Shown here piece by piece: positions 27,001 through 33,000 of a stretch of 64,000 nucleotides of DNA. Where the stretch lies: contig JBDRJK010000021.1 in the NCBI GenBank assembly GCA_043814985.1, positions 32,001 to 96,000 on the forward strand. The letters run 5' to 3'. Within the stretch, counting starts at the first letter, position 1. Every line of letters begins with the position of its first letter. This DNA comes from Candidatus Aenigmatarchaeota archaeon. Its GTDB lineage: Archaea; Aenigmatarchaeota; Aenigmatarchaeia; Aenigmatarchaeales; Aenigmatarchaeaceae. Position numbers: made by a program.

Positions 27001-30000
27001 TGAGTCTGGCGAGATATTGGGAACCGCTGAAAAGATATATCAAAAGGAAGAATTGGAAAGAAGGATGAGGGAGGATTTCGTTGCACATCCAAAAGAAATT
27101 TACAAATGGTACATAGAGCTTAGAGAAATGGGCTTGCCGCCGCATAGTGGTTTTGGTATGGGTGTGGAAAGAGTCTTGAGAAGTTTTCTTAATCTTAAAC
27201 ATGTAAGGGATGTTATACCTTATCCAAGACTTTATACAAGATTACCTTATCCTTGATTTAATAATATTTCTATATTTTCAGAACCAATTTTTTTAAGAGT
27301 ATCGTCATTGAAATCTAAGTTCATAAAACTCTTTACAACATTCATATATTTTTCTTCAGTAATGTAGGGTAAATCTGTTCCGAATAATATCTTTTCAGCA
27401 CCCAATGTTTTGATTAGAAAATCATATACGTCTTTACAATTCTTTTTGGTTTTAGCTGCAAACCTATCCAAAAGACTGGTTTCAACAAAAACATTCTTTG
27501 TCTTTCTAGCATTTTCCAATACACCAGTGTCAAGCCTAGCACAGTGGGCAATTATGAAGCTTACAGAGGGATAGCATCTGGCAAGTTCTATTATATTAGA
27601 AGGTAGTGAGTTTTCATCCTCACCTGAATGCGAGATAAAAACAAGGCCGTTTTCCTTGACAATATCCATTATTTCTGTTTTAGCTAGTTTTTTTGGGGAG
27701 AAATTAGTTACAAAGGGATGTATTTTAACACCTATTATACCTTTCTCAATATAATCATTCAGACATTTCACATTTTTAGGGTATCTCGGGTCTATTATTA
27801 TGAAAGGTAATAAATCCTTGTTTCTTTTCCCAATGCCAATTATCTTTTCATTTTCTTTGTGATAGGGGTTTTCCTTGATTTTCCACCTTCCCTTACAGAG
27901 GGGGCATTCCAGAATGTAATGGTCTTCATGGACGCTTAAACATGTGGGGGAAAGACCGTAAGATTTGCAGTTTTTATTTTCACATGTTAGCTCTCTTACG
28001 CTTGGGCAGGGGAAAATTACAGATTTTTCAACCCCATTTTTTCTCATTAAATCTAATAGCCTACTTTCTGATAACGATATCTTTCTATCAGTCTTTCTGT
28101 TATAATAGTAATCGTTTCCTATATGCACGTGGCAGTCTGTTATTTTCATAATTATAATTATATATGGAAACCATAAATTTTATAAGTTTCTAATATTCTA
28201 ATGATGTTATGGCTTGGTCTATAAACAATGAAAAATGCATTAGATGTGGAGGCTGTGTTTCAGTCTGCCCTTTTGCTGCATTAGAGCTGGATGACGATGT
28301 TATTCATGATGAAAAGCTGTGCACTTTGTGCGGAATTTGCGAGAAAGCTTGTCCTGTAAGAGCAATAGAGGTGAAAAAAGATGGGTAAGAAAAGGAGCTG
28401 GAAAACTGGGAAATCCCAGACCAAATATTCAAGAGAGAAGAAGAAAAAATGATACTATGTACGATGTGATAATTGTCGGCGCTGGTCCTGCTGGAAGCTC
28501 TTGTGCCAAGAGGTTGGTAGAGAAGGGTTTCTCTGTTAAGATATTTGACAGGAGAGAGGAGTTAGGAGTTCCTGTCAGGTGCGGGGAAGGCTTGAGCGAG
28601 CATGCTCAGGATATTATAGGTAAGATTCCCAAAGAATGCATTTCCCAGAATATCAAGGGAGCCAGGGTATATGCCCCAAACGGCAAGTACTTGGAAGCTG
28701 TGCTTGAGACTGGAGGATTCATACTGGACAGGAGAAAGTTTGACAAGTGGTTGGCAGAGAAGGCTGAGAAGGCAGGCGCGGAAATACAGAAGGACACCCT
28801 GATCACCGATTTCATAGTGGAGGACGGCTACTACATCGGAGTCAAGGGCGAGGGCTTTGAGGAAAAGGCAAGAATGGTTGTCTGCGCCACAGGAGCCGAG
28901 TCTGCTTTAAGGAAGTCTTTGAAGGTCTTCTCAAAGCTGGAGCTTATTGATTCTTGCTTGCAATATAAAATGTCCGGCATTGGTTCGGACCAGGATTTCA
29001 TCCACATTTATCTTGGGAACGAGATATCTCCAAGGGGATACACTTGGGTGTTTCCAAAGGGAGGCGACAAGGGCAATGTCGGAGTGGGCATCATTCCAGG
29101 AGAAAAAACAGCCAAGCACTATCTGGACAAGTTCATTAAGGAGACCGATGAACTGAAGAACGGCGAAATATACTTGGTCGAGGGAGGCTGCGTTCCTGTT
29201 GGCGGCATGCTGAAGGATGCAGTGGATAATGGTTTATTGCTGTGCGGCGAGGCAGCGCATTATGTCAACCCCATACATGGTGGCGGCATAAAGGAAGGTA
29301 TCGTATCAGGTTTTTTGGCTGCTGATGTCATTGCAGAATGTTTAAAGAATAATGATGTTTCCAAAAAAGCCCTGTCCAAGTACAATGACTTGTGGTGGGA
29401 GCAGAGAGGCAACAAGCTGAAGAAGGTGGAGAAGCTGAGGGAAGTTCTCGAGAAGCTCTCTGACAAGGATTTGAACGAGTTGCTTGATGTTCTCAAGCCA
29501 GAGGACATTGTTGATTTCACCAGGGGAGCCAAACTCTCTGTTCTTGCAAAGGCCCTCATGAGAAAGCCCAGGTTGTTAGGACTGGCTAGGCACTTGATGT
29601 AATCAGCTTATTTAATAACAATACAAATAATTATTTTATCTAAGTTGCAATATTCTAGTGGTAAGATGACGAGAATAGAAAAATTAGATATACAGGGTTT
29701 CAAGTCCTTTTCCAGGAAGACTTCCCTAACTTTCCCTAGCAACTTCTCTGTGATATGCGGTCCCAACGGCTCTGGCAAGTCCAACATACTTGACGCGTTA
29801 TGTTTCGTTCTGGGAAGGACCTCTGCCAAAAGCTTGAGGGCTGACAGGATGATGGAGATGATATTCCACGGCACAAAGAATAGGCCTCCCGCAGAGCTGG
29901 CAAAGGTCTCAATGCATTTTGACAACTCAAGTAAAGAGTTCCCCTTTGAGGATGACAAGGTCATCCTGTCCAGGAGAATAAACAGGAAAGGCATTTCCAT

Positions 30001-33000
30001 TTACAAATTAAACGGAAGGACTGTTACAAGGGAAAGGATCCAGGAGATTCTCAGGCCTGTCAGAATCCGACCTGGCGGCCACAATATAATTTTGCAGGGA
30101 GATGTCACTGAGATAGTTGAGATGAGTCCTCTGGAAAGAAGAGAGATTATTGATGAGATATCTGGGATAAAGGAGTTCGACCAGAAGAGAGACAAGGCCC
30201 AACGCGAGTTGATGACAGTCGAGAACCGGTTAAAGGAGTCGCATATCATTCTTCACGAGAAAAGGTCAAACCTTGTCAGGCTTGAAAAGGAGAGTAAAGA
30301 TGCTCAAAGATACCAGAAGCTGACAAGGGAACTTGATAAATTAAGAGCCTCTTTGGCAAGGCACAAGCTGAGTGTTGCTGAGAAGGCAATGGCAAAGCTC
30401 GACGAGAAAATAAGTAATATCGAGACAGGTGACATTGACAAGGAAGTTGATGTGATAGAGAAGGAGTTGGAGAGGGTTGAGAAGGAGAGGGATGTTGTTG
30501 ACAAGAGGCTTTTTGACAGGACCAAGGACATTGCCATAATTAAAGAAGTTGAGAAGATAAGGTCTGAGATAAACAGGAACAGGGACAAGATAGATATGGG
30601 ACAGCTCAACATAAGAAGGACAGAGGACGTGATAAGGAGATTAGAATACTTGCAGCAGAAGGAGAGGGAAGGTTCTGTCAGCAAGGCTGTCAAGGAGATA
30701 ATGAACCTTGGTTGGACAGGAGTATACGGGACAATTTCCTCGTTGTCAAAGGTTTCCAAGAAGCACCAGTCAGCAATTGAGGTGGCTGCTGGCCCGCATC
30801 TTAATGATATAATTGTTTCTGATGAAAGGGTTGCAATTGAGTGCGTTAACCATTTGAAGAAAAACAAGATTGGGAGGGCAACGTTTCTTCCCCTGAACAA
30901 GATAAAAACAAGGGACAGCAAAGGTCTGAAGAAGTTCTCTTATGATGACGGCTTTGTTGGCATAGCAATCGATTTGGTAGAGTTTGACAACAAGTACTAC
31001 AATGCATTTTCTCATGTTTTCGGGAGCACTGTCATTGCCAACACAATCAGTGATGTCAGGAGGATGGGCATAGGCAATGCTAGGTTTGTAACTCTTGAAG
31101 GAGACTTGATAGAGAGGTCAGGAGCAATAATCGGCGGTTATTACATCAAGAAGAGGGTCTTTTCTGGCAAGGAGGAGATTGAAAAATATACTAATGACAA
31201 GGCAAAGCTGGCTGCTGACATCAAGGTTCTGGAGAAGGATATTGTTTCTCTGAAAGCTCAGTTGGAGTCTTTAACAACTGAGGAGGAAACTGGCAGCAAG
31301 GAATTGACTGACATGCAGAAGAAAAGGCAGATGCTGGAAGAGATGTTCGACTCATTGGAAAAGAAGAGGAAGAGTATGTTCCACGAGAGGATGAACTCCC
31401 AGGAGAGCATTAACAAATTAAGAATTAGAAAGGCAAGGCTTGAGGCGGAATTAGAAAACCTTAAACTGGAGTTCGAGAACTACAAGAAGACCGAGACGCT
31501 TGACATTACCCCGTCTGTTCTGGAAAATAGGATACACCAGACCACTGTCTACATAAACGCTTTGGGACTGATAAACATGAAGGCTCTTGAGGAGTATGAC
31601 GAGCAGAAGATAATATTCACCGATCTTAAGGAGAAGGTCGACAAGTTGACAGAGGAGAGGAACAAGATTCTAGAGATAATAGCCGAGATTGAGGGCAAGA
31701 GGAAGGAGTCATTTACCAAGACCCTGGATGAATTGAGAAAGGAGTTCAAGATTGTTTTCCATGACTTGATGAAGGGCGAGGCTGATTTGAGGCTGATAGG
31801 CGGTATGGACAGTGGCTTATTGATTGAAGGCAGTGCAAAAACTAAAAAGATGATGAACATAGATTTGATGTCTGGTGGCGAGAAGACCTTGACTGCTCTA
31901 GCATTCCTGTTTGCCATCCAGAGGTTCAGGCCAGCGCCGTTTTATATTCTTGACGAGATTGACGCTGCTTTAGATAAACCGAACACCAAAAAGACAGTTG
32001 AGTTGATTAAGAAGTATTGCGACAATTCCCAGTTTATTGTTATTTCACATAATGAAGCGACAATCCAGGCAGCTGATTCTGTGTACGGAGTTTCTATGGA
32101 AGAAGGGGAGTCTAGGTTGGTTGGAATAAAGATGCCTGGCTAATTACAACTCTTTAATTGCTGGTAAATCCGAAATCCTAATAACAGCATCTTCCGGTAT
32201 TTTCAACATGCTTCTGCAATCAATGCCGAAAATTCCCGTTTTCTTTCCCCCTTCTTTCCCAAAACCATAAACATGGTAATCAACAGGTCCCAGAGAGGTT
32301 TCGGCAATTTTTTCTCCTGAGCCGTTTTTTACTAAATTATCTATTTCCCTCTTTAAAAATTCTAAATGACATTCTTGCGTAATGATAACACCTTTTTTAT
32401 TTTCTCCTTCCTTCTGCTGGTAATTCAAACACACTAAACCCCCTGCCACAAATTCATTCTTATAATTATTTTTCCTTTGAATTTTCTTAGCCTTTCTTGT
32501 CAATTTTTTAGAAAGTTTATAGGGCATTTTCTTATTTTTAGAACAAGCATAACTTACTGTCTCAATAATTTCTTCCATTCCTTCTGGTCTGTGCAACTCT
32601 GAACAGCTATTGCATACACCTACAAGGGTGTAGTTTTTCCCTTCAAACAGTTTATATGCGGCTCTTTCAATTTCAGCCTTAAGTTGGACTTCTTTCCTCC
32701 CTGTAACCTCTGATATAATTTTGTTAATGTCTGATGCACCTTCTCTTAACTCATTAACATACAAAGGTTTTTGGCGTGACATAGAATTTAATTGAAAGGA
32801 AAAGGATTTAAGCCTTTCTCGGTGTTGTTGGAAAAGCCGGGAACAATCCTGCAGATATCTTTATACGGTTTACAACAAAAGAAAATAGCTATGGAAGAAA
32901 AATTCATAATCCAAGTTGAGAATCTCACGAGGAAGTTCGGGAATTTTACAGCAGTGGATGACATCTCCTTCAAGGTCAAAACCGGAGAAATATTCGCTTT

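What a model noticed while it worked through the whole genome (the two positions that open the first line are those of the whole stretch)
29666..32143. Half-length canonical Smc (825 aa) throughout Aenigmatarchaeota
The only Smc has intact head, hinge and ScpA/ScpB partners but coiled-coil arms about 170-180 residues shorter each than the standard ~1180-aa Smc, i.e. two superhelical periods. This length is fixed in Aenigmatarchaeota and shared with Nanohaloarchaeota, while other DPANN show stepwise lengths (about 1190, 960, 810), which names the lineage behind the tentative 163-aa arm mode.
Evidence so far: Head and hinge domains, ScpA g00931, ScpB g00932. Full-length ~800-850-aa frames across the order (40 of 42 with a match, call 13) and phylum (147 of 151; longer frames of ~1350-1400 aa show an insertion near residue 37, call 14). 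Motif-to-motif arms: N 183 / C 243 versus 352-364 / 408-416 in three full-length Smcs. Nanohaloarchaeota 7 of 7 at about 800-860; Woesearchaeota-labelled 1145-1200 or 960-990; Pacearchaeota-labelled 965 and 810; Euryarchaeota 1170-1195. Four literature searches gave no report of it.
(Added by a program. Inside this text positions count along the whole contig: contig position 32,001 is position 1 of the stretch shown here. "Call 12" and the like, gene names such as g00115 and contig names such as C1 are that model's own, and its searches are not shown. The text may have been shortened before it was handed on; [...] marks where a part breaks off. The agent that wrote the report below was given it as the finding of a first reader that could run no searches.)

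Follow-up and report, generated by a model that had tools for sequence, protein, structure and literature searches.

The report
Half-armed Smc, passed to bacteria
This tiny archaeon's chromosome-folding Smc motor is intact but its arms are half the usual length, a size at which engineered Bacillus versions failed, and the same short motor was handed with its partner genes to a phylum of bacteria.

Summary
Real. 29666-32143 encodes an 825-aa canonical Smc (heads, hinge; ScpA/ScpB 4 kb downstream; sole copy). Its arm strands are 170/177 aa against 338/346 in Pyrococcus; the hinge-proximal half is missing. No full-length frame turned up in 201 Aenigmatarchaeota genomes, and Nanohaloarchaeota share the length. 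It fits the 163-aa mode of Bürmann 2017, which rests on three sequences; in that paper's B. subtilis screen arms of 136-213 aa gave essentially no growth. New here: 96 of 121 Bipolaricaulota (bacteria) genomes match, 88 full-length and short, as an smc-scpA-scpB operon. Smc and ScpAB trees both put it beside Nanohaloarchaeota (bacterial origin rejected, AU p 0.003-0.01), and ParB passed cut-off in 1 of 61. Corrections: the Pacearchaeota-type 960/810-aa proteins lack a hinge (zinc hook or none), so they are not steps of this series; 'two superhelical periods' is approximate; long frames are inteins. Loop extrusion by such arms is inferred, untested.

The parts
29666..32143 (+). smc, 825 aa, half-length-arm canonical Smc (P0001)
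   Evidence: AlphaFold2 with a 76-sequence alignment, mean pLDDT 80, pTM 0.47; best fold matches are condensin, cohesin and Pyrococcus Smc
29666..30190 (+). N-terminal head (res 1-175): Walker A GPNGSGKS 32-39 (intein site in relatives), R58, Q144
   Evidence: (invariant in 76 sequences)
30191..30697 (+). N-terminal arm strand, about 170 aa; helix breaks at 251-256 and 283-286; colinear with the head-proximal half of full-length Smc
   Evidence: TIGR02169 match 4-329 to model 2-331
30698..31153 (+). SMC hinge (res 345-496) with GX6GX3GG at G479-G491
31154..31681 (+). C-terminal arm strand, about 177 aa; break at 541-545; joint-like interruptions 605-615 and 634-639
31682..32143 (+). C-terminal head: signature MSGGE 735-739, Walker B/D-loop ILDEIDAALD 761-770, H795
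36369..37061 (+). scpA, kleisin, 230 aa, ordinary length
   Evidence: PF02616; single copy; 214-288 aa matched in other archaea
37141..37698 (+). scpB, kite, 185 aa
   Evidence: PF04079, TIGR00281 over cut-off; ScpB in 79 of 81 phylum genomes

Best explanation
This is the cell's housekeeping Smc-ScpAB condensin. An ancestor of Aenigmatarchaeota and Nanohaloarchaeota lost the hinge-proximal ~170 residues of both arm strands, leaving head, neck, joint and a ~23-nm arm capped by a normal hinge. Shown: the anatomy, the fixed length, purifying selection, and a transfer of the smc-scpA-scpB operon from the Nanohaloarchaeota side into Bipolaricaulota, where it is the only Smc found. Inferred from the family: hinge dimer, kleisin ring, and an ATP-driven rod-to-ring cycle that entraps DNA and extrudes loops to fold and separate chromosomes. 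Inferred and untested: with half the inter-arm space it takes shorter steps, or lets the captured DNA bow out of the ring, and it loads without ParB/parS as proposed for other archaeal Smc.
For: All ATPase motifs invariant in 76 relatives. Sole Smc with ScpA/ScpB. Arms 151-183 aa in 148 of 385 hinge-bearing rows, none at 190-230, N and C strands co-varying, r 0.74 (query-biased, with duplicates). dN/dS 0.03-0.14 in five Bipolaricaulota pairs; 0.14-0.20 where measurable in one Aenigmatarchaeota pair, otherwise saturated. Head-proximal colinearity. Trees without most of the arm: Bipolaricaulota + Nanohaloarchaeota SH-aLRT 100 for Smc (99) and for ScpA+ScpB. AU rejects Bipolaricaulota + other bacteria, p 0.0098 (25 rows, LG+G4) and 0.0028 (22 rows, C20). 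Operon and bacterial rpoA lie on one contig that makes up essentially the whole genome in G361 and G362. ParB over cut-off in 1 of 61 Bipolaricaulota; the two ParB-like hits of G000 sit beside a terminase-like gene and a methyltransferase-like gene (names read by eye).
Against: No activity was measured. In B. subtilis, 72 of 78 hinge-graft constructs with arms of 136-213 aa gave zero colony area and the rest at most 0.09 cm2, against up to 2.4 for working lengths, so this length does not work in that chassis (single values are noisy: the 344-aa construct scored 0.07). A segment-capture simulation puts the captured DNA near 50 nm, twice this arm. 25 of 121 Bipolaricaulota gave no Smc match and five of these checked also lack ScpB, so it is dispensable or lost in part of that phylum. 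Arm pieces N3 and C1 map weakly (79% and no clear hit). The 65-row AU test did not finish. Nanohaloarchaeota were surveyed as proteins and four metagenome loci, not as genomes.
Confidence: 0.68

Rival explanations
1. The short complex no longer extrudes loops. It is an ATP-gated clamp or tether that entraps or bridges DNA (for example behind forks), which suffices for small chromosomes.
For: B. subtilis Smc fails at these lengths, and mis-sized arms there target DNA and hydrolyse ATP but do not relocate (abstract). Related lineages tolerate even hinge loss, hinting at relaxed mechanics in small cells.
Against: Length held within about 30 aa across three phyla, arms under purifying selection. 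It is the only Smc in 1.5-2.9-Mb Bipolaricaulota genomes. The length falls where a 91-aa period predicts the next window below 253-267.
Confidence: 0.22
2. The shortening is streamlining driven by small genome or cell size, with no special mechanics.
For: Aenigmatarchaeota genomes are 0.4-1.9 Mb; Rad50 of G000 is 790 aa against model lengths of 872-895; Patescibacteria and Pacearchaeota-type Smcs are also short.
Against: Equally small genomes keep long Smc: 125 of 147 matches in the Woesearchaeota-labelled phylum have 1089-1270-aa frames and 55 of 59 Micrarchaeota 1100-1331 (one row, G516, is unpublished and not needed). Bipolaricaulota up to 2.9 Mb use the short form. Rad50 is not halved. The trait follows descent and transfer, not size.
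Confidence: 0.07
3. The short gene or its presence in bacteria is an artefact: misassembly, a decayed paralogue, misbinned archaeal contigs, or tree attraction by composition.
For: All are MAGs; one NCBI record labels the Bipolaricaulota-type protein Heimdallarchaeota; many titles say 'Thermotogae'; several Bipolaricaulota rows have atypical composition.
Against: Contigs reproduce the ORF; hundreds of orthologues share the length; bacterial neighbours (bacterial-type ValRS) and rpoA on the same contig; Bipolaricaulota Smcs are not acidic (D+E 0.14-0.16 against 0.18-0.21) and a haloarchaeal Smc is not attracted.
Confidence: 0.03

Closest known systems
Canonical prokaryotic Smc-ScpAB (Pyrococcus Smc, PDB 5XEI/5XNS/4I99/4RSJ; B. 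subtilis Smc; TIGR02169/TIGR02168)
   Same: ABC head motifs, joint-like breaks, GX6GX3GG hinge, ScpA and ScpB, single copy.
   Different: Arms of about 170 rather than about 345 aa (about 23 rather than 47-49 nm); hinge-proximal half absent; no ParB partner found in the bacterial carriers.
Engineered Mini-Smc and the 163-aa mode of Bürmann et al. 2017 (PMC5344682; seen: abstract, passages, sections 14 part 1 and 26, parts of supplements 2 and 3)
   Same: Same design, a hinge grafted on a shortened head-proximal arm (figure legend); my 173.5 is about 168-170 on their scale, inside their three short rows (159, 160, 173).
   Different: Working Mini-Smc arms were 253-267 aa; 136-213 aa failed in B. 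subtilis. In the passages seen the mode is called possible and minor and no lineage is named.
smc-scpA-scpB transfer from Methanomicrobia to Cyanobacteria (seen as passages in PMC11823831, citing Wolfe and Fournier 2018)
   Same: Whole archaeal operon in a bacterial phylum; recovered in my trees through Melainabacteria and Sericytochromatia rows.
   Different: That one is full-length and from methanogens; this one is half-length, from the Nanohaloarchaeota side of DPANN, into Bipolaricaulota.
Hinge-less SMC of marine Actinomycetes (PMC12153180, passages) and short SMC-like proteins (ASRP/ClsN, Rad50, Lamassu LmuB about 20 nm; PMC10586767, passages)
   Same: Short coiled-coil ABC ATPases.
   Different: They lack the SMC hinge or the kleisin/kite partners; P0001 scores 80-84 bits on the ASRP and best Rad50 models against 719 on TIGR02169.

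Membership tests
Prokaryotic Smc of Smc-ScpAB | Split ABC head with Walker A, Q-loop, signature, Walker B, D-loop, H-loop | tested here: met
Prokaryotic Smc of Smc-ScpAB | Central SMC hinge with GX6GX3GG | tested here: met
   PF06470 E 3e-29; G479-G491
Prokaryotic Smc of Smc-ScpAB | ScpA and ScpB encoded in the genome | tested here: met
Prokaryotic Smc of Smc-ScpAB | Head phylogeny inside canonical archaeal Smc | tested here: met
Prokaryotic Smc of Smc-ScpAB | Family HMM cut-off | tested here: inconclusive
   TIGR02168 passed (588/567); TIGR02169 missed by 10 bits (719/729), as expected with 350 model positions absent
Prokaryotic Smc of Smc-ScpAB | Arm of about 340 aa (47-49 nm), the usual but not defining size | tested here: not met
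   170/177 aa
Prokaryotic Smc of Smc-ScpAB | ATP-dependent DNA entrapment and loop extrusion | not testable with these tools
   needs biochemistry or Hi-C
Rad50/SbcC | Zinc hook in place of a hinge; Mre11 partner | tested here: not met
   hinge present; a separate 790-aa CPVC protein lies next to an Mre11-like gene on contig C11 (read by eye)
ASRP/ClsN and MksB/JetC (Wadjet) | ASRP model cut-off; jet/mks operon with nuclease | tested here: not met
   NF045487 80 of 300 bits; neighbours are a geranylgeranyl-reductase-like gene, an unknown gene and an ABC transporter; PADLOC not run
163-aa arm mode (Bürmann 2017) | Mean arm about 159-173 aa by their boundaries | tested here: met
   173.5 on my scale, which reads 4-7 aa above theirs for Bacillota; identity of their three GI rows not resolved

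The most novel reading that the evidence does not exclude
A true loop-extruding condensin works with ~23-nm arms, shorter than the DNA segment that current capture models need and at a length that failed throughout the B. subtilis screen. It is a self-contained, ParB-independent module that moved from nanosized DPANN archaea into a bacterial phylum and took over chromosome organisation there. That makes it a natural minimal SMC motor, and a second archaea-to-bacteria smc transfer usable as a time constraint between Nanohaloarchaeota and Bipolaricaulota.
Probability: 0.55. Interest if true: 0.8.

Novelty: new variant of a known kind. Interest (0 to 1): 0.66.

Why it matters
How SMC arms convert ATP hydrolysis into DNA steps is open, and rival models make different predictions for step size and force as arm length changes. 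Engineered arms this short were dead, so the test could not be made. Here evolution supplies hundreds of conserved half-length motors, including in named Nanohaloarchaeota with complete genomes and in bacteria, whose operon could be tried directly in a B. subtilis smc-scpAB deletion. The transfer also shows the short complex can serve a foreign chromosome of 1-3 Mb without ParB, and it gives a relative date linking a DPANN lineage to a bacterial phylum.

Tried and rejected
Literature, 8 searches of the held library: no report of the short DPANN Smc beyond the 163 mode, and none of the Bipolaricaulota transfer. Term look-ups found no Bipolaricaulota or Acetothermia in PMC8665677, bioRxiv 2024.01.07.573240 or PMC11823831. 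Limits: subscription papers are absent; figures are not held; the supplement of PMC11823831, whose tree covers all GTDB bacterial Smcs and may show this branch, was unreadable; bioRxiv supplements are closed; only the first 300,000 characters of PMC7203096 are held. A short Smc in Heimdallarchaeota (label) was rejected: its genomic relatives are Bipolaricaulota-type. Short 'Micrarchaeota' proteins P0423/P0427 fall among Aenigmatarchaeota. Korarchaeum as the third 163-mode row is only my recollection; a 151-genome hinge search of the Bathyarchaeia-containing phylum (65 matches) could not test it, and its short frames were not fetched. The number of independent origins is unresolved: unnamed P0251/P0403 join the clade with head+hinge but group with Micrarchaeota on heads alone; Undinarchaeota P0138 (833 aa, arm 173) stays outside in all three trees, without strong support, and its genome was not reached. 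The 65-row AU test was unfinished after two runs. A single-sequence fold of the Bipolaricaulota Smc had not returned. RNA run X4 holds only two short pieces: no evidence of expression. The sigma-70 scan is not meaningful for an archaeon. No complex prediction was run, since hinge dimer and ScpA contacts are textbook pairs.
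Full report
1. The gene. Window 29666-32143 (+) encodes 825 aa with SMC_N and SMC_hinge domains. It scores 719 bits on the archaeal Smc model and 588 on the bacterial one, against at most 84 on Rad50 and ASRP models. Its best solved relatives are Pyrococcus Smc fragments. ScpA and ScpB lie 4.2 kb downstream, and all three are single-copy in the 91%-complete genome. Walker A, R58, Q144, signature, Walker B, D-loop, H795 and three of the four hinge glycines (G479, G490, G491) are invariant or nearly so in 76 relatives. Two overlapping contigs of one public run reproduce the ORF exactly. 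Close relatives are labelled Aenigmatarchaeota.

2. The arms. With head and hinge HMMs built here, the strands measure 170 and 177 aa, against 338/346 for Pyrococcus sp. NA2 and a mean of 348 for 29 Bacillota-labelled Smcs. Scaling the published 47-49 nm gives about 23-24 nm (inference). AlphaFold2 on the 76-sequence alignment gives a normal head, hinge and long helices with joint-like interruptions (pLDDT 80, pTM 0.47). Profile alignment maps residues 170-327 onto 170-331, and 546-680 onto 882-1017, of a 1165-aa Woesearchaeota Smc; the NCBIfam matches break at the same places. So the hinge-proximal half was lost, the design of the engineered Mini-Smc series. The exact junction is uncertain because the two hinge-side pieces map weakly. 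The loss of 168-175 aa is near two 91-aa periods (182) but not two 99-aa periods (198), and natural hinge-bearing arms in my sample fill 303-355 aa continuously, so the period reading is plausible, not shown.

3. Distribution in archaea. 194 of 201 Aenigmatarchaeota genomes match. The 150 listed rows are 138 single-piece short matches, 10 intein-type and 2 partial; the other 51 genomes, re-run, add short, intein-type and fragmented copies, one with only a weak hit and 7 without a match. No frame of 1100-1250 aa appeared. Six long proteins were read: each has an intein in Walker A (GSGK|C/S...HN|S) with intein and LAGLIDADG domains. Nanohaloarchaeota proteins are about 830-875 aa or intein forms. 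A Naiadarchaeales (Undinarchaeota) protein is 833 aa with a 173-aa arm. By contrast 125 of 147 matches in the Woesearchaeota-labelled phylum and 55 of 59 in Micrarchaeota are long, in genomes of similar size. Two hinge-bearing 944-aa proteins have 231-aa arms, so a real intermediate class exists. The Pacearchaeota-like order is different: 80 of 81 genomes match, with frames mostly 950-1035 or 794-824 aa, and all 20 fetched lack a hinge, 8 with CPxC at the apex and 12 with neither; 5 of 5 tested keep ScpB. They are not steps of this series.

4. The 163 mode. Bürmann et al. 2017 list modes at 238, 341 and 515 aa and possibly 163 and 423. The sorted table ends with three rows of 173, 160 and 159 aa (I read parts 1, 22 and 23 of 41). 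The first has its N-head at residue 574 of about 1375, the layout of the intein form, and a head-to-head span of 507, against about 508 for P0385, a 1377-aa intein-bearing protein of the nanohaloarchaeal clade. The second (span 488) fits the shortest proteins of this clade (P0134, about 490). The third has a shorter head and is unexplained. The GI numbers could not be looked up. In their screen only 253-267 aa worked below 321; of 78 constructs from 213 to 136 aa, 72 gave zero area and six at most 0.09 cm2. A length that is dead in B. subtilis is thus the fixed state of whole phyla.

5. A bacterial phylum carries it. One short representative was labelled Heimdallarchaeota, but 33 of the 37 genomic loci retrieved with it are 65-96% identical and come from records titled Bipolaricaulota, 'Thermotogae' or bacterium. 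Across that phylum 96 of 121 genomes match; 88 are single-piece matches of 810-847 aa and 8 are partial. Arms are 168-182 aa. The genes stand as smc-scpA-scpB among bacterial housekeeping genes. It is the only SMC_N hit of that strength in 5 of 5 genomes, and shares a contig that makes up essentially the whole genome with bacterial rpoA in G361 and G362. In LG+C20 trees of head, neck and hinge (65 rows, 570 columns) Bipolaricaulota join Nanohaloarchaeota at SH-aLRT 100 inside a short-armed clade with Aenigmatarchaeota (99). ScpA+ScpB give the same pair independently (100). Holding Bipolaricaulota with other bacteria is rejected (p 0.0098 and 0.0028 on 25- and 22-row subsets), as is an Aenigmatarchaeota+Nanohaloarchaeota clade without them (p 7e-10). 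The groups were named after a first tree was seen, and support values are from quick searches. Acidic-proteome attraction is unlikely. Nesting within DPANN on a bacterial root gives the direction archaea to bacteria. dN/dS is 0.03-0.14 in five pairs. ParB passes cut-off in 1 of 61 genomes, which fits archaeal-style loading (Thermococcus Smc appears not to use ParB; PMC11840125, passage). 25 genomes have no match and five checked also lack ScpB.

6. Mechanism. Shown: parts, length, selection, transfer. Inferred from the family: a hinge dimer closed by ScpA/ScpB that cycles between rod and ring and passes captured DNA from the inter-arm space to the kleisin chamber (model in PMC5526789, passages). 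I put 0.68 on loop extrusion with shorter steps or bowed-out DNA, 0.22 on a non-extruding clamp, 0.07 on mere streamlining and 0.03 on artefact. The strongest points against extrusion are the B. subtilis screen and a simulated captured segment near 50 nm.

7. Novelty. A new variant of a known complex. The length class was glimpsed in 2017; eight searches found no paper that assigns it or reports the transfer, within the limits given under Tried and rejected. This scan recorded the short Smc three times and the zinc-hook form several times; look-ups by words and by the Bipolaricaulota-type sequence found nothing on the transfer. The precedent for such a transfer is the methanogen-to-cyanobacteria smc operon.

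Noticed in passing
L042, L231-L233, L376-L383 (order of G201, Pacearchaeota-like): Smc with canonical heads, no hinge and a CPxC zinc-hook motif at the apex (952-1006 aa; 12 loci); a natural counterpart of the engineered Smc(Zh). Already noted by this scan.
   Followed up: partly
L364-L375 (same order): 781-809-aa Smc with neither hinge nor CxxC (12 of 12); dimerisation unexplained; G588 keeps ScpB.
   Followed up: partly
L236, L312 (Hadarchaeota-labelled): 761-aa hinge-less Smc followed by scpA and scpB (L236); no PF06470 hit in either genome.
   Followed up: partly
L052, L093, L112 (two Patescibacteria-labelled, one unnamed bacterium): 723-852-aa Smc without a detectable hinge, bacterial-type heads.
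   Followed up: partly
P0046, P0077, P0085, P0090, P0098, P0103 and long frames: An intein with a LAGLIDADG endonuclease in the Smc Walker A motif recurs across Aenigmatarchaeota, Nanohaloarchaeota and, by frame length, Woesearchaeota and Pacearchaeota-like genomes; shorter inserts of about 160 aa in P0128 and P0237.
   Followed up: partly
P0138 (173), P0140 (242), P0142/P0152 (345): Neighbouring in two trees with weak support: a possible true hinge-bearing 345/242/173 series near Undinarchaeota; only P0138 is named.
   Followed up: no
P0251, P0237/P0403, P0498: Unnamed hinge-bearing Smcs with the shortest arms seen (151-162 aa); placement differs between trees, possibly an independent shortening.
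   Followed up: partly
G363, G367, G370, G372, G379: Bipolaricaulota genomes with no Smc match and no ScpB; four also lack ParB over cut-off and G367 has only weak hits: possibly bacteria without either system.
   Followed up: partly
window 22718-27256: Three class IIb synthetases in a row: two non-discriminating AspRS-like (452, 448 aa) and one AsnRS-like under cut-off (435 aa), with a HIT-like gene after the first.
   Followed up: no
G000:C9:3400-8700 and C8:28600-31700: ParB-domain genes beside a DNA-methyltransferase-like and a terminase-like gene (C9, provirus-like) and in a methyltransferase island (C8); names read by eye.
   Followed up: no
L215 (G203:C49, Bathyarchaeia-labelled): Second, 685-aa SMC-like protein without a canonical hinge beside a full-length Smc in the same genome; probably the Smc5/6-related archaeal type (not tested).
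   Followed up: no
window 41052-42953 (-): 633-aa acidic, cysteine-rich predicted surface protein with a MopE-like repeat.
   Followed up: no
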